64,000 nucleotides of DNA from Naegleria gruberi (lineage: Eukaryota): NCBI GenBank assembly GCA_000004985.1, contig GG738902.1. The stretch is one strand, 5' to 3'. Position 1 is the first letter of the stretch, and each line of letters starts with the position of its first letter. This document shows, one piece after another, positions 6,067 through 43,192 of the stretch. The translations under genes were made by a program, and so were the position numbers. The notes under the pieces are model-generated. The model did not search any database, had not been told where the DNA came from, and saw only the letters and a list, made by a program, of their open reading frames with translations.

Positions 6067-8850
6067 TTACATGTTGATCTTTTGTCTGATTGGAATGACA
6101 TGGTTAGCAATAGTGAGACCAATAAAAATGGCCACACCAACCAAGAACACATCCAAGAAGAAATTCATTCCAGCCTGAGTATTATTGGTATAAATCAAAG
6201 AGGCCATACCTCTATATGACATACTACCTGGACTAAGCATTAACACAGCAACCCCAGCAACTAAAACAGGGGGACAGTGAGTAAAAATAGTAAAAATATT
6301 TGCCATTAAACCAACTGCAACAGCTGCAAGTACTGTAGAAATTTCAATTTTAAGGAATGAAAGAGAAAAATTCAACAGGTGAGCAGTTAAACTAGTTCCT
6401 AAAACAGCAACAATAACCTTTGGATCAGAAGGAACTTTTCTTGAAATCATTGTTGCTAAACTCAATGACAATACAACAATAATTCTCAACCAAATAGGAA
6501 TTGCTAATCTTTCTATATCCTTATCCTCACTTTCTGATAGTAGTGGAATTTGATTAACAATACCTGCTGTAAATATGAGGCCAAATCCTAATTTCAAAAT
6601 AATACTGAAAGCATTGGTAAGTCTTATTACTCCTGCTAGAGAGGCACCTATCGAAATTTCAGATAAGGCCACTGTAATGATTGACCCGGGTAAGAACTGA
6701 TACGATGTGCACAAACTAGTTAAATTGTAAGAATATTAATCGATAATGCTAAAACTTACGTAATCAATGAAACTGAAATATAATACTTGTCGAACAAGAC
6801 CCATTTCATGAAAATACCAACCAATCCACCAATCAAACTAGCAACAGCTGGAATAATCGTCGAGAATATTGGCATTCTCGAGAAGAAAAAGTTAACAACA
6901 CCAATAATTAATCCAATGAGAAGACAAGTAAACACCTCAGGTAAAGTTCCCTTCCATAATAATACAAACAATCCAGGTGTTAAAAAGTGGAAGAATAAAT
7001 TAATCATTGGATGGGAATAAATAACTGGTTCTTGAATGATCTTATTGATCTCAGCTTGAGCTTCATCAATTGTGAAATGTCCATGAGAAATATCACTGGC
7101 AACTTTATCAAGCTTTGCCAATTTATCCATATTTACAGTTTGTCCTTCTAATTTGATAAAATAAGTAAACATATTGTCATTCGATTCTTTTGGTCTATGT
7201 CCTAATCCAATCCAAATTCCATTAGTATTTACAGAAAAGTATGCATCTATACCGTAATACGACGAAATTAAAGTAAGGTGGTATTCCACTTTGTAAGAAC
7301 TCAATCCATATATTGAGAGAGCGTACGCCAGATCTTGAAACTTGTCAAAAAATTATCCAAACAGAAAACATACCAATAAGCAATGAGTGTACCTTCTTTC
7401 TATCGTCTGTCGATAAATCCTTATATAAAACTCTTGATTGATTCTTTTCTGATTGTCCTGTGAAAAAGTATTTGAATGAGCCAATAACTTTTTGTAATTT
7501 AGTCTTTGGTTTAGACACAGGCTCCTCCTCTATGGAGGGAATCCTCAGCATTGCTGTATCATTACCATCCTCTCCACTGCAACTAGATTCAGTTTCCACA
7601 GATACATCAGCTCCATCTATCAATTCCTCCTCATCACCTCCTGATTGCATTTGCTTTTCCTTTGCCTTGAGTAATTTTCTCTGATACCTAAGAGTGTTTC
7701 TGAGCTTTTTGAAATTGTAGGCACGCAAAGTTCTGGTTTGAGACGGAAGTAATACTCTTGGTGTTTCCAGAACAGATGCCAGCTTTTTTGTAGCTCTCTT
7801 AATGAAAGATGGTTTTTCTTCCAAGTTTTTCGATGAGAATATCATTGGCATTCGTTCTTTCAATGAGACACCTGTTTTCTTTTCAATTTGTCTTGCAAGA
7901 TTGTGAGCTGAATTGAACAGAGCACCTATTGCAGAATTTCCTCCATTTGTGAGTTCTTTTTCAGCCAACTTGCGCATATATTCATCCTCCAAAATACTTG
8001 GCTGCATAGTTGGATCCAAAACAAGAGATGAAATAGATTCCATTGAATCTGATGGCCTTAATAAATAACCAGGAATGGTTGGCAAAACAATTCCATCAAT
8101 AGATACTTCCTCCTTTCCAGAAAGTTGCAAAGTTGGTGGGATATGTAACAATCCTTCATCATCCACAGTTGCATCCACAGAAATTGTTTCATCATATGGT
8201 TGCAATTCATCCAATTCTACTTGTATAGGGGTTGAAGGTTTACTCTGATTTCGTTTAAGAATGATTGATCCATGTTGTTCACCAGTTTTCGATCCTCCAA
8301 AACTGAATTTAGCAGCCGATGATGTCACTGCTTCCTTTTGTAAATTATTGTAATTAGAATTTGGAATATCAACATTTAAATTTGGCTTGCTCCTAAATGA
8401 TGCAGGTGTAGTAGCCATAGTAAAATGTGATTGATTATTTGCATGATGATTTAAATTATGAATGGTTGGAGAACTACTCTCGGAAGAATCCTTTGAAAGA
8501 GCAACACCTTTAATATTCGATCGGGTTGATGTATTAATTGTTGTTTCATCATAGTGAGTTGCTGATGATTCTTCCACTGGTGTAGAGTATGGATTAACAA
8601 CCTCTTCATAAGTAGATGATGATGATTGTAGAGGATTCGTAAATACCAACAAATTAGCTTCGGAAGTTGCTGAAGACTGAGGATTTTGATGAGTCGTATT
8701 ATTTGCATGATTAGCATGCTGATGATGATTTGCTTCAAAAACCTGATGTAGCAGAGATGATCCTCCTTTGTTCTTGCTATTCATAGTAGCACTGCCCGTT
8801 GTTGGTGTTTTTGTGGGTTGAGCAGAAATAGAGTTTGAGTTTGCGCTCAT
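6067..8850 (-). CDS. PRM10/ThrE-family (DUF1212+DUF3815) putative threonine/serine exporter-like membrane protein with a long disordered N-terminus. Three exons: complement(join(6067..6715,6760..7333,7374..8850)).
   Basis: The middle and 3' exons encode the characteristic ThrE/PRM10 membrane core. Introns are att g|GTATGT...caAG (7334-7373, 40 nt) and att ac|GTAAGT...ctAG (6716-6759, 44 nt). Frames join to give ...SLLIDLAYALSIYGLSSYKVEY... and ...SVSLITLCTSYQF... Confidence 0.6.
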
Positions 8851-9217
8851 TTTTTTTGCTTTGATATTTTAAAAAAATAGACGTTGGACGATGAAAACTT
8901 TCCAACTATGTATTAATGTACAAAGGTGATGAAATTTGTTGATATTATCATCTTCTACCTCAAGTCAATCGCCTCCCCAATTAACAATGAGCAACAGGTA
9001 TTGTTTTTACTGTGATAACAACCACACTAATATGGATAACGTGCCGTTTTTGCATCATGGCTCTTGTTTTGGGTGACGAAATTTTTTAAAACAAAAAAAT
9101 TAACAAATTTTCAATCTTCCACAAAATTTCATCATCACGAGGTGAGAAAAGGAAGCAACAACAACAAGGCTTCTTATTAAATTTATCAGACCAACAACAA
9201 TAACATCATCTGACAGA

Positions 9218-12200
9218 ATGGCCTCATCACCCGAGATTGTGGAGGTTGTTGATTCATCATCTACAATAGATAATTCTGAACAGAAGAGTTCTCTGATACC
9301 ATCTACTGACCATAACTCTTGGCTAACACCAGTTTCTATAAATCAACTTCTTCATAAAGCACAACAAGAAAAGGAAGAAGAAGAAAATAAGGAGGAAAAT
9401 ACAGATCCAAAGAAGAAAAAGAAGAAGATTCGTTGGTATCACACTAAATGTTTTATCTATTTTGCTGCTATTATACTTGCCGCTATTTCAATTTTGACCA
9501 TTATAATTTCATATGTCTTGTTTGTTAGACATAATCACTTGCTTTTTGTTTGTAATTCTGCAGAGTTTATTGTTGTTTCCTTCTTTGAAGTTATTATTTT
9601 GATTTGTGCTGCCATTGTTGCTTTTAAACTTAATGAATGGTACAAACAGCATCACTCAGAAGTTGCTGAATCAGATGAGGATTTAAAGTTGAAATATTCG
9701 GATAACTTGGCCAGAGACAAGTTGATTATGAAATTCCAAAACACAAGTGTAGTCATTTCACTCTGTTTACTTACAATTTTCACATTAATTTATTTAGCCC
9801 TTTTCGTCATCCTTCTTTACGGAATTTCTAAAACAACACCTTCGCTTTCAGGAGTAGAATATTATACACCAATTCAACATGAAACTGTGATAGAAAAGGA
9901 AAAGACAAGTGGTGTTTTTCACATTCACGCCAAGACTGACTATGAGTTATTCTTTGCACAAGGTGTAGTCACAGCAAAGGAGAGACTATTCCAAATGGAA
10001 ATTATGAGAAGAATGGGTCGTGGTACATTGTCTGCTCTGATTGGTGAAGATGCTCTTGAATTGGATAAGTGGAGCAGAACTCTAGGCCTTTTGAGAAATT
10101 CCAAAAATCATCTTCAAGATTTGGATTATCGTGCTAATTTAACTCTTACTGCTTTCTTTGATGGTGTAAATTCCTATTTGAAAACTAATCCTAAAATGCC
10201 ACCAGAATATTGGTTAATATTTAACAAGAAGACAATTCACAAGTTTGAGGTTGTTGATGCTCTCGTATTTTGGAAATTAGCTGCTTTGGATATTTCTACA
10301 AACATTTTTATGGAAAAAGTAAGATTTAATTCTTTAAGAAAGAACAATACTCTTGCTCATACTATGGAATTTTATCCAACCTATCCAAGAAGTTGGCCTG
10401 AACAATTCAAAAAGACTGATTTGAACATTCAAGCTACTCAAGAGGAGATTGATGCTCTTGAAGAAAGATTTACCAACAACTTTGGAGCCTTTATGCCAAA
10501 GAATGAACAAAGTGACAATGATAATAACAATGATGGAGATGGTGATATTGTTCCTGAAGACCCAGAAGATCCAATCGTACAAGAAGGATTCACTAGAAAA
10601 TTGAGAAAGATTAAGAAAAATCATCCGGCCGTCTATAATTCAATTGAATCATTCTTCAATAAGAAATCACACGAATCATACTTTGCTTCCAATGCTTGGG
10701 CAGTCCATGGATCAAAAACAAAGAATGGAAAACCAATATTGGCCAACGATCCACACATGAAATTAACTGCTCCACTTCCGTTCATTATGTTCCACTTGGT
10801 TTCAGAAGAAAGTGGTTTAGATACCATTGGTGCTACCTATCCACTCATTCCTGGTATTGTTATCGGAAGAAACAAGAATAGTTCATGGGCTATTACTTCA
10901 TCAGGATCTGACGTTCAGGATTTATTTGTATTGGATCAAATTAGTGACTCAACCTATGTTGTCAATGGAACAGAACATGACTATGTAACACATCAAGAGG
11001 AAATTCACTTTGATAATACTCAAAGTGTTACCATTCACGTTAAGGATAGCATTTATGGACCTGTTGTTAATACTCTTTTGGGATGGGAAGATATTCAAGA
11101 AGTTGTTGCTTTGAGCTGGACTGGTATTAAGGATAATGATACCAGTTTGAATGCTGTTATTGGAATCATGTACCAAAATAATTGGCCTCAATTCCATGAA
11201 AATATGAGACATTTGGTTTCTCCTCCTATGAATTATATTTATACTGATGCTGAAAATATTTGCTCACTCGTTGCTGGAATGGTTCCAATCAGAAAGTATG
11301 GACATACTGGATTGTTCCCAGTTTCTGGAAATGGTACCTTTGATTATGAAGGTTATGTTCCATATGAAAAGATGCCATATGTATGCAACCCAGAGAGAAA
11401 GTTTGTTGTTGCTGCCAATGCAAGAATTGAACCACCAGGATATCCATATTATCTTGGTGCTGATGTAGGTACAAAGTACAGACTGGAAAGAATCGAGGAT
11501 TTATTAAGTTCAAACAAGACCTTCAATATTACAAATATGGTCGACATTCAATTAGATACCTATTCTAAACTCTTCTTTGATTTGAAGCCATTTATCTCCA
11601 AGTTGAAAAATACTAGTTTAACATTCCAAGAAGAAGTTATCAGAAAAGATTTGGAAAAGTGGGACGGCTATCTTATTCTTGGATCTAAACAAGCAAGTCT
11701 TTTCGAAATGTTCCACACCAAACTTTGGAATATGTCTTATGCTGATTTGGGTGTTGAAAATTCAAATATTATTTACATTAAGAATGCTCTCAACAAAACA
11801 GGACGATGCTCTCCAAATCTTCCAAAGACTTGTATGTCATATGCAGTATCTGCATTCAAACAGTCTATTGCTGATTTGAAGGTACTCTCCAAGAGTACAG
11901 AGATTCCTTCTTGGGGTGTTGGTATTCACTCAACTACATATTTCCATCCAGTTTTCCACTCATATGCATTCTCTTGTGCATGCGACAAACGTCACTATGT
12001 TCCTGGTGGAACAGACACAATCAACTTTTCTCGTGTTACTGAGACCAATTTAGATTCTTCACATGGTGTTGCTTTCAGACAAATAACTTCTATGAGTGAT
12101 GCTGATGGTGATTTATTTATTACTCCTCTTGGGCAAAGTGCTAACTGGTTAGACTATGACTATCACTCTAATTTGCAAATATTTGCTGAGGGAAGATATC

Positions 12201-12268
12201 ACTCACTTAAACGAAAGAATTACAAGGTAACTTCAACACTTACTTTGAAACCTAAGGTCTCCCAATAA
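9218..12268 (+). CDS. Penicillin amidase / acyl-homoserine-lactone acylase family Ntn-hydrolase with an N-terminal transmembrane region (1016 aa, no introns)
   Basis: SNAWAVHGSKTKNGKPILANDPHM is the hallmark beta-subunit N-terminal nucleophile region of the penicillin acylase family. Residues about 75-210 contain 3-4 hydrophobic helices. Confidence 0.7.
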   Translation: MASSPEIVEVVDSSSTIDNSEQKSSLIPSTDHNSWLTPVSINQLLHKAQQEKEEEENKEENTDPKKKKKKIRWYHTKCFIYFAAIILAAISILTIIISYVLFVRHNHLLFVCNSAEFIVVSFFEVIILICAAIVAFKLNEWYKQHHSEVAESDEDLKLKYSDNLARDKLIMKFQNTSVVISLCLLTIFTLIYLALFVILLYGISKTTPSLSGVEYYTPIQHETVIEKEKTSGVFHIHAKTDYELFFAQGVVTAKERLFQMEIMRRMGRGTLSALIGEDALELDKWSRTLGLLRNSKNHLQDLDYRANLTLTAFFDGVNSYLKTNPKMPPEYWLIFNKKTIHKFEVVDALVFWKLAALDISTNIFMEKVRFNSLRKNNTLAHTMEFYPTYPRSWPEQFKKTDLNIQATQEEIDALEERFTNNFGAFMPKNEQSDNDNNNDGDGDIVPEDPEDPIVQEGFTRKLRKIKKNHPAVYNSIESFFNKKSHESYFASNAWAVHGSKTKNGKPILANDPHMKLTAPLPFIMFHLVSEESGLDTIGATYPLIPGIVIGRNKNSSWAITSSGSDVQDLFVLDQISDSTYVVNGTEHDYVTHQEEIHFDNTQSVTIHVKDSIYGPVVNTLLGWEDIQEVVALSWTGIKDNDTSLNAVIGIMYQNNWPQFHENMRHLVSPPMNYIYTDAENICSLVAGMVPIRKYGHTGLFPVSGNGTFDYEGYVPYEKMPYVCNPERKFVVAANARIEPPGYPYYLGADVGTKYRLERIEDLLSSNKTFNITNMVDIQLDTYSKLFFDLKPFISKLKNTSLTFQEEVIRKDLEKWDGYLILGSKQASLFEMFHTKLWNMSYADLGVENSNIIYIKNALNKTGRCSPNLPKTCMSYAVSAFKQSIADLKVLSKSTEIPSWGVGIHSTTYFHPVFHSYAFSCACDKRHYVPGGTDTINFSRVTETNLDSSHGVAFRQITSMSDADGDLFITPLGQSANWLDYDYHSNLQIFAEGRYHSLKRKNYKVTSTLTLKPKVSQ

Positions 12269-12360
12269 ATCGACTGATTAGTTGTGAATTAATGGTATTG
12301 TTGATTGGTAAACCCAATCAATTTTATTGTAAAAGTTCCACAACAATCAGAATAAAAAAA

Positions 12361-14607
12361 ATGAAGCGAAATCTACTTCGTTCTTCTCATGTGAGAAATA
12401 AGATCAAAACACATGCCAACAAGATTACACTTACCCGTCCAAACATATCACAGAAAATATCTCTCCAATCAGAATCCTACAATTTGTCCCCAAATGTTCG
12501 TTCCATCAGCTCCACGATCACACATGGTAACCCCTTGTTGAAACAGTCAATCAATGTTAATGATATTGGCTCAACTAATACTGCCAACATCAATAGAACA
12601 TTCTCAACTAATATATTGGTCATGCAAAATAATGACACAACCAAGACAGATGCCTTCTCCAATTTGATGGACAATCTCTTTGTGAAAGTTAAACGACACG
12701 ATGTATCTGAGCATGATAGGACATTTGCCAAGTTTTATGATTTGGATAGTGATGAATATGGATATGTGGATCCAAAAACAGATCCAAACAATAGGACTGT
12801 GACTGAGAATGGAGCTACAACCTTCAGCTCATCAGGATCAAATCTTGTTGATTTCTTTTATTTCACAGTGGAGGGAATTTCTCAACAAAAAATTCACAAA
12901 TTGTTGGATGCAAGTTGGAGAGAACAACCATTGAAAACTCTTAAAGTAATCTTCTTCATTAGAGATATTAGAAATGGAAAGGGTGAAAATGAAATCTTTT
13001 ACGAAACTCAAAGATGGCTTGCATTAAATCATCCTCAAACATTCCTTGAAAATCTCAAAAATGTTCCAACATCTGGTTATTGGAAAGATTTACAAAACGT
13101 ATTGCTCTACATTCGATATGGTGGTCATGAGCGAGACGAACGTCCTAATTGGGCTAAGGAAAAAAATGTATTATTGAAACGGTTGCCATCAGAAAAATCA
13201 CTCTATGAGAAAGCCATTTTCCAAAAGAGGCGTTCATATAGACCAATTAAAACAGAAGAAGATAGAAGAATAAGAGAGAAAGATATTGCCAATCAGGTCA
13301 AGCAGTCATTCTCACCAAACGAGTTGTGGAACCAAGAAGTAAGAAATACTGAAAAATTGGTTCTTACAAAGGAGGAAAGTAAGAAGTTGAAATTGGTTTA
13401 TGAGAAGGCTAAGGATATAGTTGTTGATTTGTATGTGGACCAATTATTGAAGGATCGTGAAAACCTTTCTAAGGGAGAAGTAAAATCTCTAACATTATGC
13501 GCTAAATGGGCTCCCACTATTAATCTATCAACTGATAGACAGTTGGGTATTGGTAAACAAATAGCTCAGAAACTTTTCCCATTCGATCAACCTGATGGTA
13601 TTCAACTTACAATTAGAAAAGAAGGAAAGGGAGATAAGAAATACACAGACCAACAAGTTTACAGATATTTGGCAAATATCAAGTATCAAAAGCTGTTGAG
13701 AGATTTGAGAAAGGCAACTGTTACTATTGAAACATTCATGTCATCAAAAGAGTGGTCCAATATTCCATACGAAAGGGTACCTTCTGTTTGTATGAATAAG
13801 AAGAAGAAATTATTTTCCTTAAAAGACAATGAAAGATTTGTATCTTTTTTGGAAAGTGTTAAAAAAGGAGAAAAGAAGATTAATGGAGCTGTTCTATTCC
13901 CTCACCAACTGATTGAACAGTTATATGCCTCACACTCAAAAGAAGTGAGTGATACTATTGAGCTACAATGGAGAGAAATTGTAAAGAATGTAAAAGAGAA
14001 ATCAGACAATGGAATATTCAACTGTATTCCTGTTTGTGATGTGAGTGGAAGTATGAATGGCACACCTTTAAACGTCTGTGTAGCATTAGGTCTATTAATG
14101 TCTGAAATTAATACTGGAATATTTAGAAATAAGATTATTACCTTCTCTGAAAACCCATCCTTTGTCGATTTATCTGGAATTGAAGGTGTTAAAGAGAGGT
14201 TTGATAATCTATGCAAGGCCGATTGGGGAATGTCCACCAATTATATATCCACTTTTAAATTAATATTGGAAATGGCATTGAAAAATAATCTACCAAAGGA
14301 TCAAATGATTAAGAAGGTTGTTGTCTTTTCAGATATGCAATTCAATGAAAGTAGTGCTGATACGACAAGCCATCAAGAAATTGTGGACATGTTCGCTGAA
14401 CATGGTTATGAAGCCCCTGGAATAATTTATTGGAATCTAAGAGGAGATGTCGATAATATTCCAATCACAGTGACAACAGATAATGTTGCTTGCATGTCTG
14501 GATTTAATGCAATTCTATTGAAAATGTTGATGGATATGGACTTGAGCATTGAAGGTCTTGTTGATGCTTCCATTAAAGATTATGATTTTGTAACATTACA
14601 CGACTAG
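12361..14607 (+). CDS. vWA-domain protein with a MIDAS motif (DVSGSM), DUF2828/UCP015417-like
   Basis: Long ORF. The start is most likely the ATG at 12361, because the track start at 12292 is only 23 bp after the previous gene's stop. The C-terminal region has a DxSxS MIDAS and a vWA-like fold signature. Confidence 0.5.
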   Translation: MKRNLLRSSHVRNKIKTHANKITLTRPNISQKISLQSESYNLSPNVRSISSTITHGNPLLKQSINVNDIGSTNTANINRTFSTNILVMQNNDTTKTDAFSNLMDNLFVKVKRHDVSEHDRTFAKFYDLDSDEYGYVDPKTDPNNRTVTENGATTFSSSGSNLVDFFYFTVEGISQQKIHKLLDASWREQPLKTLKVIFFIRDIRNGKGENEIFYETQRWLALNHPQTFLENLKNVPTSGYWKDLQNVLLYIRYGGHERDERPNWAKEKNVLLKRLPSEKSLYEKAIFQKRRSYRPIKTEEDRRIREKDIANQVKQSFSPNELWNQEVRNTEKLVLTKEESKKLKLVYEKAKDIVVDLYVDQLLKDRENLSKGEVKSLTLCAKWAPTINLSTDRQLGIGKQIAQKLFPFDQPDGIQLTIRKEGKGDKKYTDQQVYRYLANIKYQKLLRDLRKATVTIETFMSSKEWSNIPYERVPSVCMNKKKKLFSLKDNERFVSFLESVKKGEKKINGAVLFPHQLIEQLYASHSKEVSDTIELQWREIVKNVKEKSDNGIFNCIPVCDVSGSMNGTPLNVCVALGLLMSEINTGIFRNKIITFSENPSFVDLSGIEGVKERFDNLCKADWGMSTNYISTFKLILEMALKNNLPKDQMIKKVVVFSDMQFNESSADTTSHQEIVDMFAEHGYEAPGIIYWNLRGDVDNIPITVTTDNVACMSGFNAILLKMLMDMDLSIEGLVDASIKDYDFVTLHD

Positions 14608-24539: not shown

Positions 24540-26231
24540 TTATGGAGTAATATTTTGCAAATAGAATGGATTGACAGTTGACCTTTGTTTTTTGTTTTCT
24601 GGGAGTGTTGGTGTTGAGGGAGTTGATGTGTTTAAGATATTTGTATCGTTTCTTTTGTGTTTCCTTCTACAGTAAAAATCTTTTGCTGCTTGTTGGATTT
24701 CAGGATGATTCTTGAAGGTTGTGGCATATCCAATAGTGATTGGATCTTGAGAAACAGCACATAATACAATATCTATTGTTTTTTCTAAAGCATATTCTAG
24801 AAGGTGGGGATTTCTCTTCAAGCATTCTTTGAGTAGGTCTATATATCCATCAAATTTGTTTGTAACATGCATGATGGCGCAAGCTGTTTCATCTGTTGCT
24901 ATCTTTACAAAATCCTTGTTCCATTTCAAGTGTTCAGCAGCATACTGTAGTAATAGCCCATCTTTTCGAATATACTTTTCCATAAATTCAGTCTTACTTG
25001 TTAAATCAGAATGAACATATTTCAAAAGGTGTACATCTTTTTCCAAAACCATTTCAACGAACTCTTGCTCTTTTCTAAGAGTTTCATGAGCAAACTTGAA
25101 AGCAATTGGATTGATCTCAATTAATTTCTGCATAAAATTCTTGTTATTTGCTAAGGAAAAGGAGTTATACTCTAACGCAAATTCTGGTCTAATTGTAAAG
25201 GCCATGATTGTAAAGCTCTTGAGAATCTCAGTAATATTTAAAGGTATCTCTTTTGAAGATTCTTCTTGAATTTTGTTGATTAATTCTTTCAGTTCGTTTT
25301 GATATTTCCAATTTTCTCCGTGGGAATAAAGTTCCAATAAGCAATCCCCAAAATTTTTCAAATCTTCAGCAAATGCTTGATTTTGAATTTTTGATTTGGT
25401 GAGGGTTTCTTTTGATTTAATTAAGGAGGTCAAAGACGCAGCATATTCCAGATCAATTAGAATTGGATCGTAAATTACATCGTACCCTCTTATAACTTTC
25501 GATCCAATCAGAAAGTTACTTAGCTTCAAATCATAATGTACATGCTCCATTTGCTGTAAATATTCTATAATGGAGGCCATTCTCATTGCAATTATCAAAA
25601 AGGATATTTCACTTAATGGCTTTGGAATATTTGACAAGTCACCATTTGGATAGAAAACCATATGATAACCCATGTAGGATTGAAAATCCTTATCATATGC
25701 ATCCATAAACTCAATGGCACGTTCATAACTAATAATGTTTGAGCAATTTTCTAACAACATTACTTTCTCAACCTCTCTCTTGACCTCCTTTTTCGGACCT
25801 TTGGTAATCTTTATCACTACTTTTTTTCCTTTCCATAGGGCTGTGTATAAGTGACTTCTTTGACCCTTTCCATATGACTTTAAATCTCCGTATCCTAATA
25901 TCTGTAAATAATTTAATATGAATCTCGTTTCATAATCAAAGAAAATCTTTTTCTGTTGTTTTGTGGTGTCAAAGTATTGCCACATCTCCTTCAAACAATC
26001 ATCATTCGCAATATTGACGATTTCTTTCTTGGAATCATCCAAATAGTAAAACCTGGCAATATAAGGATCTTGTTCGTCTAAAAGTTTTTCAAAATTTGTT
26101 TTAAATTCCATCAAGTTTAATTGTTTGAATTCCTTCGCACCAACAACTATGTGTGGTGTAGCATCATTAACAGACGTGAAGAAATACACTGTTTCATTGT
26201 CATAAACAGGGCTGTTACCATTTAGCAACAT
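24540..26231 (-). CDS. Protein-kinase-like (probably pseudokinase) protein with C-terminal DUF4116-type alpha-helical repeats
   Basis: The glycine loop is degenerate (GYGDLKSYGKG) and is followed by VVIKITKG. The catalytic loop reads HYDLKLSNFLIG in place of HRDLKxxN. DFG is replaced by IDLEYA. The C-terminal part has 4-5 repeats of the ~25-aa unit ...LLxYAxExLKxNxxFV.... Confidence 0.5.
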   Translation of the reverse strand: MLLNGNSPVYDNETVYFFTSVNDATPHIVVGAKEFKQLNLMEFKTNFEKLLDEQDPYIARFYYLDDSKKEIVNIANDDCLKEMWQYFDTTKQQKKIFFDYETRFILNYLQILGYGDLKSYGKGQRSHLYTALWKGKKVVIKITKGPKKEVKREVEKVMLLENCSNIISYERAIEFMDAYDKDFQSYMGYHMVFYPNGDLSNIPKPLSEISFLIIAMRMASIIEYLQQMEHVHYDLKLSNFLIGSKVIRGYDVIYDPILIDLEYAASLTSLIKSKETLTKSKIQNQAFAEDLKNFGDCLLELYSHGENWKYQNELKELINKIQEESSKEIPLNITEILKSFTIMAFTIRPEFALEYNSFSLANNKNFMQKLIEINPIAFKFAHETLRKEQEFVEMVLEKDVHLLKYVHSDLTSKTEFMEKYIRKDGLLLQYAAEHLKWNKDFVKIATDETACAIMHVTNKFDGYIDLLKECLKRNPHLLEYALEKTIDIVLCAVSQDPITIGYATTFKNHPEIQQAAKDFYCRRKHKRNDTNILNTSTPSTPTLPENKKQRSTVNPFYLQNITP

Positions 26232-33987: not shown

Positions 33988-34014
33988 GTTTCCCGCCACA
34001 ACACTTTGCGCCCT
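33988..34014. promoter_or_regulatory. E2F-like site TTTCCCGCCAC (plus a weaker TTTGCGCCC) 55-80 bp upstream of the coiled-coil gene ATG
   Basis: It matches the TTTSSCGC consensus and stands out as GC-rich in an AT-rich promoter. Confidence 0.35.
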
Positions 34015-34068
34015 TAATTTTCATAAACGACCGTTTAAAATGATTAAGAAAATCATCTTTAAAAAAAT

Positions 34069-37000
34069 ATGTCGACCACCACTAGGAAGCCATTGCAAGA
34101 CATTTCCAATAAGGTACACCTTGTGAAGTCTACTACTAGCCAATCCACTAGTAGTCAGATGAAGAGTAAAGCTAAGGAAATGATACCTGTAAAACAATCA
34201 AAGAGCTCTAGGATGTTTGATATCAGGGCCAACAATAACAAATACGATACTCCGGAACGTGATAATGATATGGATTATGGTTCTCCAACATCGATTGGTT
34301 CCTTGGAAGAGGAATTTGGGGAATTGTCTGATTTAAGGGAGTTTTATGATGAAGTCTCATCAGACATTAACGAAAAAATTGTAAAGTCTCTTGAAAGAGA
34401 AAAGGAAAAGAATACACGATTAGAGTTACAAAGCGAGAGGGATAGAGCTCAAATTATAGAACTCCAACAAGAAAAGAACAAGCTATCACGCACTATTGAA
34501 CAACTAAAAAAACCTGCAAAGGTTGAAAAGCCAGAAATTGATTTTAATGGGCAAGTTAATCAACTAAATGAAAAGATTTCCAAATTGGAAAAGAAGGTTG
34601 AAATTGAAACTCAACAAAAAGAAAGACTATCTAACTTGTTAAAAACTAAGGAACAAGCACTCTCTAAAATTAAAGAAGAAAACGATAAGGCAGTAACAAA
34701 AGGGCCAATAGAGGAAAAGTGCTCTAGAAAACTCCAAGATCAAATCAAAATCAAGGAAGAAAAGATTGAGCGTATGAGTAAGGAAATTGAAAAGGAAAAG
34801 AACACAAAACAAGAATATGAAAACCTTATTCAAGGGCTTCAAGAAGTTTCAGACAATCTGAGAATGAAATTATCTGCCTCCAACGAAGAAATTGAAACTT
34901 CCAACAAGCTGATCGAGATTTTGGATGCCAAGCTCAAGATTGCCAACGATAGATGTAAGGACTTGGATGAGCGATTGAAAAAAGGAGAAGAAAAGAGAGA
35001 AGAGGAAAGTTCAGAACTGTTAGCACTCAGAGAAGAGATGTCACATTTATGTGATTCAGTGTTGAAGGAAAAGCAGGAATCAGAGAGAAAGACTCAACAA
35101 CTCAATCACATCCAAGCAGCTAAAGAAAAATATGAAAATGAATATACAAGAACTTGCACCAAGCTGAAAGAAAAAGAGGAAGAAACTGAAGAACTCAAAA
35201 AGGTTATTGAAAGGCTTGAACAACAAATCGAACAAATGGGCCACGATATTGATGATTCTTCAAAGGAACTTGAAGAAATCGAGAATAACTTTAGAACAAG
35301 GCTTACTGACGCAGAAGAACAACTTGCTGAAAAAGAGGAAGAAATACAGTCCATGAAAGTGAAGGAAGAAAGAACAATGGAACAATTAAAAGAGCTTGAT
35401 GTATTTGTAGAGAGAACTAAACGAAAGATTGACAAGGAGAAAGAAAAGACCAAAGACTCTGAAGAAAGAGCCAATGCAGAATATGAAAAGGCCCTTCAAA
35501 TGATTGAAAGAAACAATGCTTTGATGAGAAAGTTAGAAGCTGTAACAAGAGCAAACCATTCCTTGGAGGAAGAAGTCAAGGAAAAGGAAGACTTAATGTT
35601 AAGATTCAAGAACTATATCGAAGATGTTGAAAATAAGCTCCACAATAAGGAAGATGAATGTAGTCAAACAGTATCCAGATTAAACTCAACATATGAAGAG
35701 TTACAAAAGGAGAAGGCAAAATCAGACAGATCATGGAAAGAGCTTGAGGAGACTGTCAAAATGCTCCATCAAATCCAAGCTGAGAAGGAAGTTTTGGAAA
35801 AGAAGAGCAGCCACTCAAAGGAAGTATTGGAAATGAAGATGAATAATAAGATTTCCATGTTAGAAAAGAAGTGTGACTACCTCAAACGTTTGCATGAAAT
35901 GAATGGAGCAAGTGAAAGCGATCAAATCAAGGAAATGGAAGGGTACATTGAAAGATTAACAAAGGAAAATGAAAAATCAGGTGAAGCTGTTTCTCAACTA
36001 GAGATTACCCTTTCCGAAAAGGAATCTGAAATTTCAGTCTTGCAAGAAAAGGTAAGACAATTAGAAGATCTCCTCAACAATCAAAATCAATTACATTCAG
36101 CAAATCTTAAACCTAATGATCTCAAGAAGAGACTCATGACTGTTGAAAAATCCATGGATGAAATAATTATTGACCTTTCTATTGAAGGAATAACTTTGAG
36201 TCAACTTAATCCAAGAGAAAAAGCTGTTGTCATTCTAGAAAAGTTTACTGACATCAAGAAGGAGTGTCAATCTTTGGCTAGTATTAAGGATCAATATAGC
36301 GCAGAATTACAAAGACTTCGTGAAGCCAAAGCAAATTCTGAACGCCAAATGATCTCCCTCAGAGATGCTCTAACCAACGAAGTTGTTGAGAGAAACGAAG
36401 GGTGTATTACCGATCTCACTGACAGTTGTACCTTCCTTTACAATACTCTCACAGATGCTATTGAACAAAGAGAACTAGAAGATGCAAATATTCCACTGAG
36501 TTCTGAACTCTTGGATGAATTGTTGGAATCTGTTCTCTCTATTCAAGTTAACTTGAAGAAAGTTAGTAACCATTTGAATCAAGTTGATACTCTTCAACAA
36601 GTGATGGATTCTCAAAATGTATTTAATAAGGACTTTGTTTCTTTATGTGGGGAATTGGAAAACAGAGTAAGATCATTAATAGAAGAAAGAGATACTTTGC
36701 TAACTGCTCAATTCCAATTAAAGGACAAGGAAAAAGGAATCTCGAATGGTGTAAAGAAAAAGCTTGACAAGTTAATGTATAAGAATGTTATGATTCAAAC
36801 AAGTTCACAAACTCAATCTGCAGAGGGTGAAACCCAAACAGTGGAAAGTGGAGTTGGTTGTGAAGCAGAACAAGATCAACCAACCAACGCAGAAAGAGAA
36901 CAAAACACTCACACAGAGCAAGAACATGAGAGCCTTAAGAATAAGTATCAAAAGCTTTTGGCTACCTGTCACAAGTATAAGAAGCTCATGCTTAAATTTA

Positions 37001-37467
37001 CTCAACTCCACACCAAAGAAAAAACCAATGTCAGACAATCCATCCCAAGAGTGACCAATCAATCGAATATTTCACAACAAGATTCTATTCACAATGAAGA
37101 TGAAACTCATCAAGATCAATATGAAGAAGAACAAAATGAGGTGGTTGACCATGATGATTATCAAGACAATTACCAAGATAATTATCAAGAAAATGTTCCA
37201 GTCATTCGTGCCTCTCTTCACCACCCACTTTCATTTGATAAGGAAAATACCACACCAAAATCAACAAGACATAACCAATCAAATGGTGACAGTAGTGATA
37301 ATAGCCCTTCCAATGCCTCTGTTTCATCTGTAAGATCTGTCTCTACAACATTGAGTGTAGCATCTGAAAGAAGTTCCTTCTCTACCATTTCCTCCAAATT
37401 TAGAAAAAATCAAGCTCCAAACTCTTACCTTTCCAGTCATATGTCAGTAAGAAACAGACTCAAATAA
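34069..37467 (+). CDS. Large coiled-coil protein (1132 aa, E/K/L-rich heptads) with disordered S/Q/D-rich termini
   Basis: A continuous ORF from an ATG. The central stretch of about 850 aa has a strong heptad periodicity. There is no motor or other catalytic domain. Confidence 0.55.
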   Translation: MSTTTRKPLQDISNKVHLVKSTTSQSTSSQMKSKAKEMIPVKQSKSSRMFDIRANNNKYDTPERDNDMDYGSPTSIGSLEEEFGELSDLREFYDEVSSDINEKIVKSLEREKEKNTRLELQSERDRAQIIELQQEKNKLSRTIEQLKKPAKVEKPEIDFNGQVNQLNEKISKLEKKVEIETQQKERLSNLLKTKEQALSKIKEENDKAVTKGPIEEKCSRKLQDQIKIKEEKIERMSKEIEKEKNTKQEYENLIQGLQEVSDNLRMKLSASNEEIETSNKLIEILDAKLKIANDRCKDLDERLKKGEEKREEESSELLALREEMSHLCDSVLKEKQESERKTQQLNHIQAAKEKYENEYTRTCTKLKEKEEETEELKKVIERLEQQIEQMGHDIDDSSKELEEIENNFRTRLTDAEEQLAEKEEEIQSMKVKEERTMEQLKELDVFVERTKRKIDKEKEKTKDSEERANAEYEKALQMIERNNALMRKLEAVTRANHSLEEEVKEKEDLMLRFKNYIEDVENKLHNKEDECSQTVSRLNSTYEELQKEKAKSDRSWKELEETVKMLHQIQAEKEVLEKKSSHSKEVLEMKMNNKISMLEKKCDYLKRLHEMNGASESDQIKEMEGYIERLTKENEKSGEAVSQLEITLSEKESEISVLQEKVRQLEDLLNNQNQLHSANLKPNDLKKRLMTVEKSMDEIIIDLSIEGITLSQLNPREKAVVILEKFTDIKKECQSLASIKDQYSAELQRLREAKANSERQMISLRDALTNEVVERNEGCITDLTDSCTFLYNTLTDAIEQRELEDANIPLSSELLDELLESVLSIQVNLKKVSNHLNQVDTLQQVMDSQNVFNKDFVSLCGELENRVRSLIEERDTLLTAQFQLKDKEKGISNGVKKKLDKLMYKNVMIQTSSQTQSAEGETQTVESGVGCEAEQDQPTNAEREQNTHTEQEHESLKNKYQKLLATCHKYKKLMLKFTQLHTKEKTNVRQSIPRVTNQSNISQQDSIHNEDETHQDQYEEEQNEVVDHDDYQDNYQDNYQENVPVIRASLHHPLSFDKENTTPKSTRHNQSNGDSSDNSPSNASVSSVRSVSTTLSVASERSSFSTISSKFRKNQAPNSYLSSHMSVRNRLK

Positions 37468-41382: not shown

Positions 41383-43192
41383 TTAATAGAGGGTAGTGTT
41401 TGGTCTTGGATTTGGAAGAACACCTTTCGATTCAAAATATGTGACCATTTGTTTAGGTATTTCGGCTAAGACTTCTGAGGCCAATTCTGTTAAATTAGAG
41501 CATTTTGAAAAGCTCACAAATTGAACAATGTCTCTGGTCATCTTCTTTCCATTGCTGTGGACGAGTGGTTCATCATCTGCGTCGAATTTTCTACAACTAG
41601 GGAATCTACTATCACCAACACCAACAATGATAATTGAAATTGGTTTGTCATTGGCCTCAACGATTGAATCTATTGTGCCTTGCATGTCAAATGCATCACC
41701 ATCAATAATTAACAATAAAATATTGTAGAATTGTTGGTGTTGAGTTATTGGAGGAGTTTTTTCTACAACGTGTTCAATTACACGATAAAAGTCATCACCA
41801 CGATATGCCTTTCCAGTTTTTGGATTGGTAGCAGAGCCCATATCTCCAAAACTTAATTTTGGAACTGCCTTAACGTAAGCATCCAGAATTTCTTCAGCTC
41901 CACACAATTCTTCCTTATCAGAAAGTGAAAGGTTAAACATTGGGTGCATTTTGGATTCCTTCTCTATAGTAGCACCGTATCCATAAGCTTCCAATAATTG
42001 GTGTAAAACGATTGTAGATTGTATAGTACTTACCGCCATACATCTTGTCAGAATCGTAAGGCTCCAAAATATGCAATACTTGCTCAAGAGCTTGTTGATA
42101 ATCATTCTTGTTTTTGGCGTTCAAATGGTGGAGGGAATAGGGATAAGTGTAAGTACCGTTTGATGCTGTAAAGTCAATTCCAACTGATACTGAAATATTA
42201 CATCCTCCAAACAGATAATCCAAAAATTCAGTTTGTCTGTTTTCCTTTCGTGCAATTGTTGATTCATATATTTCATGGATAGGATTGGGAATTGGAACTT
42301 GTACCACATCAATAGCACATAAAGAAAACTCAAATATTCCAGAATTTTTGTACTTCTTCTTCTTTAGTTGTATGGTTGGCTCAATCAAGTCAAATTGCTT
42401 TACCTTGTTATTCAATACTTGATCTAGAGTGAACCTGAACTCTCCTATCAAATCATCTTTAGAAAATTTGTCCTTATCAAAGCATTTTACAAATATTTCC
42501 TTTTGATAATCGTTATTGAACTCATCAAGATTGATTTTGAATGGTAACCAAGACGGGTTCAATGTCTTGCAGATAACTTCACTAGTATAGAGAGGGACTC
42601 TTCTTCCAGCCACATCCTTCTCAAAATAAAAATATGGATCTGATTTTCCAAGTAAATCCTTCTTGTCTAACCCAATTCCTCTACATTCGAATGAAATAAT
42701 TTTCATTTCCGAGTTAACAGTTAATGGTATCTCAGAATGTAAACCATTCAATTCATCCAAGCTCATATTTGCAAATCGGATCATCATGGCATTCTTTTCA
42801 GCCTCAACAACATCTACATTCGAATCAGATTGTCTCACCACCTTCTCAACATGAACAAAAACTTCACCTTTAACTTCTCCACTCTTCAAAACCAAATCTA
42901 ATTTTAATTTACCATCTCTAGCACAAACAGCTTGTGATAGAGTAAATTCTTTGGTCTTTCCAATAAGTCTATTACTATTTCCTGTATCTTCATCAAATAT
43001 TTCAATATATAATTTCTGCACACACTCAAAGTAATAATGAACACTAAACTTGGTTTTGAATACTGGGTTATGATTATTCTGAATAGTTTCAGTTGAACCG
43101 AGACATGAAAAATCAGTTGATATCAAAGTTTGTGAATTTTCCTGTGGGCCACTATAGTAAAGCTTTGCAAACGGATCACTCTTAGAGTACAT
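41383..43192 (-). CDS. Copine (two C2 domains plus a vWA-like domain). Two exons: complement(join(41383..41987,42034..43192)).
   Basis: Two N-terminal C2 domains and a copine-specific vWA-type A domain. The junction reads ...YDSDKMYG|AYGYGAT..., as in the human copine DKMFPAFGFGAK. The intron is GTAAGT...gaAG, 46 nt. Confidence 0.8.

What the first reader, a model, noticed from the sequence alone, without database searches (positions are those of the whole stretch)
9218..12268. Intronless penicillin-amidase-family Ntn hydrolase with a membrane-anchoring N-terminal extension
A 1016-aa single-exon gene sits in a locus where most genes carry introns. The catalytic region (SNAWAV... beta-subunit nucleophile) belongs to the bacterial-type penicillin G acylase / AHL-acylase / aculeacin-acylase family. 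The first 210 aa or so add several TM helices not present in bacterial enzymes. Candidate functions include N-acyl-homoserine-lactone quorum quenching and fatty-acyl amide signalling, relevant for a bacterivorous amoeba. The intronless bacterial-like body suggests ancient horizontal acquisition followed by eukaryotic-style membrane anchoring.
Basis: partly seen in the sequence, partly recalled or inferred. Interest (0 to 1): 0.5.

Follow-up and report, generated by a model that had tools for sequence, protein, structure and literature searches.

The report
Membrane-anchored acylase family shared across protists
The gene is a real, apparently active penicillin-acylase-type enzyme of Naegleria gruberi, but it is not a private bacterial import: it belongs to a previously undescribed family, with three membrane helices and a signature cysteine pair, shared by bacteria-eating protists from at least four eukaryotic supergroups.

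Summary
The ORF (9218-12268, +, 1016 aa) is real and matches an annotated Naegleria gruberi protein at 100%. It is a full-length Pfam Penicil_amidase (S45 Ntn hydrolase) with an intact catalytic set (S491, N492, H513, N734, R755) and three N-terminal TM helices.

The window is dominated by long uninterrupted ORFs, so lacking introns is not distinctive. About 91% of bacterial relatives already carry one N-terminal hydrophobic helix.

An exhaustive search found what the word-indexed search missed. About 60 cluster representatives share the same layout of three TMs plus acylase. They come from Naegleria, Willaertia, Percolomonas, Andalucia, Balamuthia, Pelomyxa, the choanoflagellate Didymoeca and the stramenopile Cafeteria.

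The family has a signature cysteine pair: C112 in the TM1-TM2 loop, and C920, present in 55/63 members and 0/91 sequences outside.

Orthologues in Balamuthia (at least 4) and Pelomyxa (about 11) have introns.

Most likely it is an outward- or lumen-facing, self-cleaving, two-chain acylase, possibly held to its anchor by a disulfide. The substrate is unknown, and AHL quenching is only one candidate.

The parts
9218..12268 (+). Complete single-exon gene for a 1016-aa S45/penicillin-acylase-family precursor (stop codon included)
   Evidence: ORF. 100% identical to an annotated N. gruberi protein. Pfam PF01804 at 514.7 bits. No upstream exon.
9218..9409 (+). Hydrophilic N-terminal head (aa 1-64), predicted cytosolic, ending in a KKKKKK run
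   Evidence: AF2 pLDDT below 50 for aa 1-40 and 56-67. 8 K/R residues in aa 62-81, just before TM1. Variable in length: N. fowleri and N. lovaniensis have about 220 extra residues.
9452..9526 (+). TM1 (aa 79-103)
   Evidence: Kyte-Doolittle 19-residue window score 2.85. Lies within AF2 helix 65-104. Present in the 44 family members aligned, conserved only in hydrophobicity.
9527..9565 (+). Short extracytoplasmic TM1-TM2 loop (aa 104-116, RHNHLLFVCNSAE) carrying Cys112 (codon 9551-9553), the only conserved residue of the N-terminal module
   Evidence: Cys is conserved in 95% of 44 aligned family members. It is present in 41/44 3-TM members and 1/91 sequences outside the clade. The loop has only 1 K/R, so it is predicted non-cytosolic.
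9566..9631 (+). TM2 (aa 117-138)
   Evidence: Kyte-Doolittle score 2.90. Lies within AF2 helix 115-149.
9632..9745 (+). Cytosolic TM2-TM3 loop (aa 139-176), charged and variable across the family
   Evidence: 7 K/R residues. Variable and acidic in the family alignment. AF2 pLDDT 56-76.
9746..9826 (+). TM3 (aa 177-203), the counterpart of the single N-terminal helix of bacterial relatives
   Evidence: Kyte-Doolittle scan. Lies within AF2 helix 164-206. Aligns with the bacterial N-terminal helix, with the conserved G212 and following residues at the same spacing.
9827..10477 (+). Alpha-subunit part of the acylase domain (aa 204-420)
   Evidence: Matches PGA and cephalosporin-acylase alpha chains. 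Invariant R256, Q259, R264, R265, G269, D283, R287 and others. pLDDT 95-99.
10478..10687 (+). Alpha/beta linker (spacer, aa 421-490), about 60-70 aa longer than in bacterial relatives, with an acidic low-complexity stretch
   Evidence: Insertion relative to bacteria in alignment A1. AF2 pLDDT below 50 at aa 445-458 and 480-485.
10688..12265 (+). Beta subunit (aa 491-1016). It starts with nucleophile Ser491 (10688-10690) and carries H513 (10754-10756), N734 (11417-11419) and R755 (11480-11482).
   Evidence: S491 aligns to residue 1 of crystallised beta chains. These residues are invariant from Naegleria to bacteria. pLDDT is mostly above 90. Foldseek TM-score 0.82-0.86 to D-succinylase and class III cephalosporin acylase.
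11975..11977 (+). Cys920 codon: family-specific cysteine in the beta chain, proposed disulfide partner of Cys112
   Evidence: Present in 55/63 clade members and 0/91 outside. Within 3-TM members its presence or absence tracks that of C112, 2x2 table [[2,0],[2,40]], Fisher p=0.006. All named bacterial relatives have W, P, G, N or a gap at this position.

Best explanation
The gene encodes the N. gruberi member of a eukaryote-wide family of polytopic, membrane-anchored S45 (penicillin-acylase-type) Ntn hydrolases.

SHOWN
- The catalytic domain is full length and all catalytic residues are intact.
- Three TM helices precede it.
- The same layout, plus a family-specific cysteine pair, is shared by phagotrophic protists of Discoba, Amoebozoa, Opisthokonta and SAR.
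- The third TM corresponds to the single N-terminal helix of bacterial relatives.

INFERRED
- The precursor inserts with its N-terminus in the cytosol, so the catalytic domain faces the lumen or the outside. This matches the periplasmic location of the bacterial enzymes.
- The precursor cleaves itself at Ala490|Ser491, as other family members do. This exposes Ser491 as the nucleophile of the beta chain, while the alpha chain stays integral to the membrane.
- The beta chain is held by the alpha/beta interface and, I propose, by a Cys112-Cys920 disulfide from the TM1-TM2 loop.
- The mature enzyme removes an acyl group from an N-acylated amine at the cell surface or in phagosomes or lysosomes. 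The substrate is most plausibly a bacterial product met during feeding, such as acyl-homoserine lactones, N-acyl amino acids or lipopeptides.

The family probably began with one old bacterium-to-eukaryote transfer or early eukaryotic inheritance, followed by addition of the hairpin and cysteines. It was not acquired within the Naegleria lineage.
For: - Family and activity: Pfam 514.7 bits. Beta-chain residue 1 aligns to S491. S491, N492, H513, N734 and R755 are invariant or nearly so in three alignments and in all named eukaryotes. The AF2 model has pLDDT 87.4 and pTM 0.85. Foldseek TM-score is 0.82-0.86 to D-succinylase and cephalosporin acylase.
- Topology: three TMs. K/R counts are 8 before TM1, 1 in loop 1, 7 in loop 2 and 1 after TM3. 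The ancestral Cys864-Cys872 pair is shared with 56/91 outside sequences. This fits an oxidising compartment.
- Family breadth: the top ~50 representatives in the exhaustive search score 300-457 bits, against about 280 for bacterial-type hits, and most have three TMs. Named members are given. Metagenome contigs have eukaryote-only neighbours such as Ist1, Dpy-30, PIG-X and UBP.
- Tree: the NJ clade holds 47 of the 50 sequences with two or more TMs. Known eukaryotes separate from named bacteria in 100/100 bootstraps, and in 69/100 once the nearest bacteria are included.
- Cysteine pair.
- Host-like composition: GC3 0.281.
- Introns in Balamuthia and Pelomyxa.
- Protein-level evidence in N. fowleri: 'Penicillin amidase homolog' Q25548 was found in extracellular vesicles (PMC9312180) and in an immunogenic band (PMC7350353).
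Against: - No biochemical data exist for any eukaryotic member. The substrate, the self-cleavage and the cellular location are all inferred.
- The C112-C920 distance could not be measured, because model coordinates are not exposed. The co-occurrence statistics are not corrected for shared ancestry.
- The exact clade boundary is unstable: the 63-member clade recurs in only 10-11 of 100 bootstraps. The tree is a crude distance tree on very divergent sequences.
- Most clade members are unnamed metagenome proteins, and only two of their contigs were checked.
- N-glycosylation sequons are not significantly enriched in the catalytic domain: 12 observed against 7.6 +/- 2.5 expected.
- It is not established whether Q25548 corresponds to this gene or to the second Naegleria paralogue (P0156).
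Confidence: 0.7

Rival explanations
1. A bacterial acylase gene was transferred specifically into the Naegleria or heterolobosean lineage, stayed intron-free as a mark of that origin, and gained TM helices afterwards.
For: The word-indexed search shows only Naegleria orthologues, followed by a jump to bacterial hits at 25-30% identity. The Naegleria and Willaertia genes are single exons.
Against: The exhaustive search finds about 50 closer, non-bacterial relatives with the same 3-TM layout. They come from four supergroups. The derived Cys112/Cys920 pair is shared with them and absent from bacteria. GC3 matches the neighbouring genes. Surrounding genes are also long uninterrupted ORFs. Balamuthia and Pelomyxa orthologues have introns.
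Confidence: 0.04
2. Same enzyme and mechanism, different history. After one bacterial acquisition and invention of the 3-TM hairpin, the gene spread among phagotrophic protists by eukaryote-to-eukaryote transfer, rather than by vertical descent from an early eukaryote with many losses.
For: All named members are free-living phagotrophs. The NJ topology does not follow species relationships: heterolobosean sequences sit in three places, and Willaertia groups with the second Naegleria paralogue.
Against: The scattered placement is explained equally well by old paralogy, since N. lovaniensis has two copies, and by poor tree resolution. Intron-rich lineages carry many introns in the gene, which suggests long residence. 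Absence from animals, fungi and plants was not tested.
Confidence: 0.3
3. The enzyme is specifically an acyl-homoserine-lactone acylase that quenches the quorum sensing of bacterial prey.
For: Bacterial enzymes of this Pfam family include AHL acylases, and some are cell-associated (review PMC5474475). An automatic annotation of the Andalucia member reads 'AHL acylase QuiP'. His at beta-23 (H513) is shared with D-succinylase in the printed alignment; from memory it is also present in cephalosporin and AHL acylases. All named hosts eat bacteria.
Against: The PvdQ equivalog model scores 36.8 bits against a cut-off of 950. PvdQ and MacQ are more distant than D-succinylase and cephalosporin acylase, by both sequence and fold. 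In this family, specificity cannot be read from overall similarity. No eukaryotic PF01804 AHL acylase has been described; the 2017 review lists only AtFAAH and porcine Acy1 from eukaryotes.
Confidence: 0.2
4. The enzyme acts on an endogenous membrane lipid amide, such as a ceramide-like or N-acyl-ethanolamine-like lipid. The TM bundle would hold the active site next to the bilayer. This would be a functional analogue of acid ceramidase and NAAA, which are Ntn hydrolases of a different family (from general knowledge).
For: The polytopic anchor is conserved across the whole family, where a cleavable signal peptide would suffice for secretion. The proposed disulfide would hold the catalytic body close to the membrane.
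Against: The TM sequences are conserved only in hydrophobicity, and no polar or gating residues are conserved. There is no direct evidence. The family appears limited to phagotrophs rather than being universal.
Confidence: 0.15
5. A beta-lactam role: penicillin hydrolysis, or 'penicillin biosynthesis' as suggested for Willaertia.
For: KEGG K01434 assignment and comments in PMC6892926 and PMC7285305.
Against: Those are name-based inferences. Identity to true PGAs is about 18%. The closest solved relatives are not penicillin G acylases.
Confidence: 0.05

Closest known systems
D-succinylase (DSA) of Cupriavidus sp. P4-10-C, PDB 7EA4/7EBY
   Same: Best solved relative by sequence (154 bits, both alpha and beta regions) and by fold (Foldseek E=1e-47, TM-score 0.82). 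It has the same Ser-Asn start of the beta chain and the same 'ANDPH' motif with His at beta-23 (alignment).
   Different: About 21% identity. It is a soluble bacterial enzyme acting on N-succinyl-D-amino acids. It lacks the 3-TM module and Cys920, and its linker is shorter.
Bacterial 'penicillin acylase family proteins' of 780-830 aa with one N-terminal hydrophobic helix (Cyanobacteria, Chloroflexi, Deinococcota, Alphaproteobacteria, Pseudomonas)
   Same: Closest non-family sequences. Same domain order. Their N-terminal helix aligns with Naegleria TM3, followed by the same conserved G..L..V motif. The Cys864-Cys872 pair is shared.
   Different: They have 0-1 helix instead of 3, no loop cysteine, no Cys920 (0/91) and a shorter alpha/beta linker. 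Their functions are mostly uncharacterised.
AHL acylases PvdQ, QuiP, HacB and MacQ
   Same: Same Pfam family and fold. They deacylate N-acyl amides outside the cytoplasm, and some are cell-associated (PMC5474475). This is the best model for what the Naegleria enzyme might do.
   Different: Weak similarity: PvdQ scores 24.6 bits in PDB and 36.8 bits against a 950-bit NCBIfam cut-off. No TM hairpin. AHL activity was not tested here.
E. coli penicillin G acylase and cephalosporin (glutaryl-7-ACA) acylases
   Same: The archetypes for maturation: precursor, self-cleavage at the Ser nucleophile, alpha/beta heterodimer. Beta-chain residue 1 aligns to S491. TM-scores are 0.70-0.86.
   Different: 15-21% identity. 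They are soluble periplasmic enzymes with a cleaved signal peptide, and act on beta-lactams.
Earlier reports of protist 'penicillin amidase' genes (N. fowleri Q25548; Willaertia magna K01434; Acanthamoeba and Rhynchopus mentions)
   Same: The gene's existence in Naegleria, Willaertia and 'several protists' is already on record.
   Different: In the passages I read, those reports treat it as an antibiotic-metabolism or HGT curiosity. They do not mention the 3-TM layout, the cysteine pair or a eukaryote-wide clade.

Membership tests
Peptidase S45 / Pfam PF01804 penicillin-amidase family (Ntn hydrolases) | Profile match above the curated threshold over the whole domain | tested here: met
   514.7 bits against a 21.3 cut-off, profile positions 9-673 of 675.
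Peptidase S45 / Pfam PF01804 penicillin-amidase family (Ntn hydrolases) | Ser nucleophile at the first residue of the beta chain, preceded by a spacer | tested here: met
   S491 aligns to residue 1 of many crystallised beta chains. It is invariant or nearly so in alignments A1-A3.
Peptidase S45 / Pfam PF01804 penicillin-amidase family (Ntn hydrolases) | Supporting catalytic and oxyanion residues (beta-23 His/Gln, the Asn of the 'AN' motif, a conserved Arg) | tested here: met
   H513, N734 and R755 are invariant from Naegleria to bacteria. Their equivalence to PGA beta-N241 and beta-R263 is from memory and was not checked by superposition.
Peptidase S45 / Pfam PF01804 penicillin-amidase family (Ntn hydrolases) | Penicillin-acylase-type fold | tested here: met
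   AF2 model pLDDT 87.4. Foldseek TM-score 0.68-0.86 to D-succinylase, cephalosporin acylases, PGA, MacQ and PvdQ.
Peptidase S45 / Pfam PF01804 penicillin-amidase family (Ntn hydrolases) | Self-cleavage into alpha and beta chains | not testable with these tools
   Needs protein work. The residues involved are present.
AHL acylases (PvdQ/QuiP/HacB type) | Equivalog-level sequence match to a characterised AHL acylase | tested here: not met
   NCBIfam NF051460 (PvdQ) scores 36.8 bits against a 950 cut-off. The PDB PvdQ match is 24.6 bits.
AHL acylases (PvdQ/QuiP/HacB type) | Hydrolysis of the AHL amide bond; a deep hydrophobic acyl pocket | not testable with these tools
Penicillin G acylase in the strict sense (EC 3.5.1.11) | Close similarity to characterised PGAs and activity on phenylacetyl substrates | tested here: inconclusive
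   Only about 18% identity and TM-score 0.70. PGAs rank below D-succinylase and cephalosporin acylases. Activity was not tested.
Eukaryotic 3-TM S45 acylase clade (defined here) | Three N-terminal TM helices: a hairpin, a cytosolic loop, then a third TM next to the domain | tested here: met
   for N. gruberi. 40 of 154 sampled sequences have exactly three TMs, and 47 of the 50 with two or more fall in one clade.
Eukaryotic 3-TM S45 acylase clade (defined here) | Signature cysteines: one in the TM1-TM2 loop, one at the position of C920 | tested here: met
   C112 and C920 are both present. Frequencies are 41/44 and 55/63 inside the clade, against 1/91 and 0/91 outside. Named eukaryotes were all checked.
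Recent or lineage-specific horizontal gene transfer from bacteria | Nests among bacterial sequences, with no eukaryotic relatives outside the recipient lineage | tested here: not met
Recent or lineage-specific horizontal gene transfer from bacteria | Base composition unlike the host's | tested here: not met
   GC 0.352 and GC3 0.281, against 0.247-0.341 for 16 other long ORFs in the window.

The most novel reading that the evidence does not exclude
Bacteria-eating protists across the eukaryotic tree share an old, dedicated, surface or phagosomal two-chain acylase. Its catalytic body is disulfide-stapled to a TM hairpin, a mode of anchoring not described for Ntn hydrolases. It would deacylate bacterial N-acyl signals or lipids, for example AHLs, making it a conserved eukaryotic counter-measure to, or sensor of, bacterial prey chemistry.
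Probability: 0.15. Interest if true: 0.65.

Novelty: new variant of a known kind. Interest (0 to 1): 0.4.

Why it matters
Penicillin-acylase-family enzymes are treated as essentially bacterial. The reviews I consulted list no characterised eukaryotic member, and protist copies have been mentioned only as antibiotic-metabolism or HGT oddities.

This work shows that the protist copies form one conserved family, with its own membrane layout and signature cysteines, in phagotrophs from at least four supergroups. That turns a one-species HGT anecdote into a defined, testable enzyme family of unknown substrate. It may bear on how protists process bacterial acyl-amide compounds.

It is also a caution about method. 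The apparent 'Naegleria, then bacteria' pattern came from a word-indexed search, and the intron argument fails in an intron-poor genome.

Tried and rejected
- Profile search of the named database with the family alignment. It re-collected only the candidates of the first sequence and did not return the alignment's own members, so it gave no taxonomy.
- NCBIfam scans of the query and of seven relatives. Only far-sub-threshold PvdQ hits appeared, so no subfamily name is available.
- Measuring the C112-C920 distance. Model coordinates are not exposed, so this was not testable.
- Foldseek against AFDB, to obtain organism names. The library was unavailable.
- N-glycosylation sequon enrichment as evidence for a lumenal location. 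The result was 12 against 7.6 +/- 2.5 expected, which is not significant.
- A hidden 5' exon in N. gruberi matching the longer N. fowleri N-terminus. None was found.
- The annotated N. lovaniensis 'intron'. It is two single-base frame changes in fully collinear coding sequence, not an intron.
- Literature figures for N. gruberi intron density. They were not found in the papers opened. I relied instead on the ORF structure of the window.
- Exact-clade bootstrap support is low, 10-11 of 100. I therefore rely on separation of named taxa and on the two rare shared characters, not on the clade boundary.


Full report
**1. The observation**

A single ATG-to-stop ORF lies at 9218..12268 on the + strand and encodes 1016 aa. 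It is 100% identical to an annotated Naegleria gruberi 'predicted protein', so the window is N. gruberi nuclear DNA, at 32-37% GC. Pfam Penicil_amidase (PF01804) matches at 514.7 bits over aa 231-1004, covering profile positions 9-673 of 675. The 'SNAWAV' motif is at aa 491-496, and S491 aligns with residue 1 of many crystallised beta chains of penicillin G and cephalosporin acylases.

A hydropathy scan finds three TM segments. An AlphaFold2 model built on a 74-sequence alignment has mean pLDDT 87.4 and pTM 0.85. It places helices at 65-104, 115-149 and 164-206, with pLDDT 81-88.

The 1016-aa single-exon model is sound. The 367 bp upstream of the start have stop codons in all three frames. The extra ~220 N-terminal residues of the N. 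fowleri and N. lovaniensis proteins find no match anywhere in the window.

**2. Two premises that do not hold**

*'Most genes in the locus carry introns.'* 70% of the window lies inside ATG-initiated ORFs of at least 200 aa. Twelve ORFs exceed 500 aa, and one is longer than the acylase. I examined the five tightest same-strand ORF pairs. Only the copine gene (41383-43192, minus strand) has a domain split across two ORFs; the other pairs are separate genes. I did not search systematically for short 5' introns, but a long uninterrupted ORF is the norm here rather than an exception. The acylase's GC3 of 0.281 falls within the 0.247-0.341 range of 16 other long ORFs.

*'TM helices are not present in bacterial enzymes.'* 105 of 116 bacterial hits have one hydrophobic helix within their first ~50 residues. 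In alignment A1 that helix aligns with the third Naegleria TM and is followed by the same conserved residues, G212 onward. The true additions are the hydrophilic head, the TM1-TM2 hairpin and a charged ~40-aa loop.

**3. The turning point**

The word-indexed homologue search showed only three Naegleria-type orthologues: N. fowleri (60% identity), N. lovaniensis (58%) and an environmental sequence (66%). After these, identity dropped to 25-30% for bacterial proteins. That pattern looks like lineage-specific HGT.

The exhaustive HMMER search with the catalytic domain alone gave a different picture. It returned 13,646 hits at E<=1e-3. The top ~50 cluster representatives score 300-457 bits at 31-39% identity, well above the ~280 bits of bacterial-type proteins. 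Most are 900-1050 aa long and repeat the layout: two close TM helices, a 50-80-aa loop, a third TM, then the acylase domain with its nucleophile at about residue 400-480.

Exact look-ups and a further search put names on several of them:
- Willaertia magna
- Andalucia godoyi, a jakobid
- Balamuthia mandrillaris
- Didymoeca costata, a choanoflagellate
- a second N. lovaniensis paralogue
- Percolomonas cosmopolitus, from MMETSP0758
- Cafeteria roenbergensis, a stramenopile
- Pelomyxa schiedti

The two longest unnamed metagenome contigs carrying family members are eukaryotic by their neighbouring genes: Ist1, Dpy-30, PIG-X and PPR on one, and a UBP deubiquitinase and poly(A) polymerase on the other.

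**4. Phylogeny and shared derived characters**

I built a neighbour-joining tree from 154 sequences and 699 catalytic-domain columns. It places 47 of the 50 proteins with two or more TMs in one 63-member clade, which contains every named eukaryote. The next branch out is a TM-less group that includes a Prochloraceae cyanobacterium. Deinobacterium is among the closest non-clade sequences by mean distance. Seen from the choanoflagellate member, the nearest bacteria are Cyanobacteria, Chloroflexi and Deinococcota.

Named eukaryotes separate from nine named bacteria in 100/100 bootstraps. With the two nearest bacteria added, the figure is 69/100. The exact clade boundary recurs in only 10-11 of 100 replicates. 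The tree alone is therefore moderate evidence.

Two rare characters add independent support: the 3-TM layout and a family-specific cysteine pair. Across 44 aligned N-terminal modules, the only conserved residue is one Cys in the short TM1-TM2 loop, C112, at 95%. C920 in the beta chain is present in 55/63 clade members and 0/91 outside. Both 3-TM members that lack C112 also lack C920 (Fisher p=0.006, not corrected for shared ancestry). Two clade members with only a short signal-like N-terminus lack both cysteines. All named eukaryotes have both, and all named bacterial relatives have neither. The C864-C872 pair, by contrast, is shared with 56/91 outside sequences and so is ancestral.

**5. Introns in orthologues**

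- N. fowleri: 3711 bp for 1236 aa plus stop, a single exon.
- Willaertia: 2976 bp for 991 aa plus stop, a single exon.
- The environmental Naegleria-like contigs: single ORFs.
- N. lovaniensis: the annotated 'intron' is an artefact. The coding sequence is fully collinear in three overlapping pieces in frames 3, 2 and 1. That means two single-base frame changes, from assembly error or decay.
- Balamuthia: at least four interruptions of 55-171 bp, with GT...AG-type ends visible.
- Pelomyxa: twelve collinear exon blocks in alternating frames, so about 11 introns.

**6. How it most likely works**

*Shown.* The catalytic set is intact and invariant. The fold is that of the family. There are three TM helices. 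Basic residues are distributed 8 / 1 / 7 / 1 across the segments before TM1, in loop 1, in loop 2 and after TM3.

*Inferred.*
- By the positive-inside rule the N-terminus and loop 2 are cytosolic. Loop 1 and the catalytic domain are then lumenal or extracellular, matching the extracytoplasmic location of the bacterial enzymes and the ancestral disulfide.
- By analogy with the family, whose precursors have a signal peptide, alpha chain, spacer and beta chain and cleave themselves (PMC11241749), the precursor should cleave at A490|S491. The alpha chain would remain integral to the membrane.
- I propose that C112 in the loop of the alpha chain forms a disulfide with C920 in the beta chain. This would staple the catalytic body to the anchor.

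*Substrate.* This is open. The closest solved relatives are D-succinylase and class III cephalosporin acylase, not PvdQ or MacQ. The PvdQ equivalog model is far below threshold. All named hosts are phagotrophs that eat bacteria, so a bacterial N-acyl amide such as an AHL, N-acyl amino acid or lipopeptide is the most plausible class. Low confidence attaches to any single substrate.

*Expression.* A 'penicillin amidase homolog' peptide, Q25548, has been detected in N. fowleri extracellular vesicles and in an immunogenic ~100 kDa band (PMC9312180 and PMC7350353). That fits an expressed membrane protein. I could not tell whether it maps to this gene or to the paralogue. Willaertia transcribes its copy at a low level (PMC7285305).

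**7. Comparison with what is known, and novelty**

The protein is a member of S45/PF01804, and every testable defining feature is met. It cannot be filed as an AHL acylase or as a penicillin G acylase in the strict sense.

Penicillin-amidase genes in Naegleria, Willaertia, Acanthamoeba and a diplonemid are already on record. A 2017 review of AHL acylases lists only AtFAAH and porcine Acy1 as eukaryotic examples, and neither belongs to this family. In the passages I read I found no description of the 3-TM layout, the cysteine pair or the cross-supergroup clade.

I rate it a new variant of a known kind, of moderate interest. The original claim of a Naegleria HGT with a newly added anchor is largely replaced by an old, conserved protist enzyme family of unknown substrate.

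Noticed in passing
window 12292-14607 (+): The next ORF (771 aa, DUF2828 + DUF7788) has its first ATG only 24 bp after the acylase stop codon. The DUF2828 domain begins at aa 171, so the real start is probably a downstream Met.
   Followed up: no
window 41383-43192 (-): A copine gene (C2 + Copine domains) is split across two overlapping ORFs, with the Copine domain divided between them. This was the only clear case of an intron or frame change among the five ORF pairs tested.
   Followed up: partly
L003 8001-11706 (N. lovaniensis PYSW02000017.1): The N. lovaniensis orthologue has two single-base frame changes near its 3' end (frames 3 to 2 to 1, overlapping coordinates). The public annotation patches them with a 98-bp 'intron' and an altered C-terminus. 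The cause is assembly error or incipient pseudogenisation.
   Followed up: partly
P0156 (N. lovaniensis C9374_009879, 1350 aa); L007 (Willaertia): Naegleria has a second, divergent paralogue of the 3-TM acylase. In the NJ tree, Willaertia's copy groups with that paralogue rather than with the gene in this window. I did not check whether N. gruberi keeps the paralogue.
   Followed up: no
L001/L003 versus window 7345-14607: Gene neighbourhood is not conserved. In N. fowleri and N. lovaniensis the acylase lies between two small ORFs (preceded by G-patch and WD40 genes) and an OTCase/amino-acid-kinase gene. In N. gruberi it lies between an unknown 501-aa ORF and the DUF2828 gene.
   Followed up: no
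P0003/P0004 residues 1-~220: The N. fowleri and N. lovaniensis proteins carry an extra ~220-aa Ser/Thr/Asp-rich N-terminal region. It is conserved between those two species and absent from N. gruberi and the environmental relative.
   Followed up: partly
window 34069-37467 (+): The longest ORF in the window (1132 aa) has no Pfam match. It lies in a stretch with unusually strong AT skew, 0.358 at 34001-36000.
   Followed up: no
window 24540-26231 (-): ORF combining a weak protein-kinase match with three DUF4116 repeats.
   Followed up: no
method: The word-indexed homologue search missed every non-Naegleria eukaryotic relative at 31-39% identity, both with the single sequence and with the family profile. 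This produced a false 'eukaryote, then bacteria' gap that mimics HGT.
   Followed up: yes
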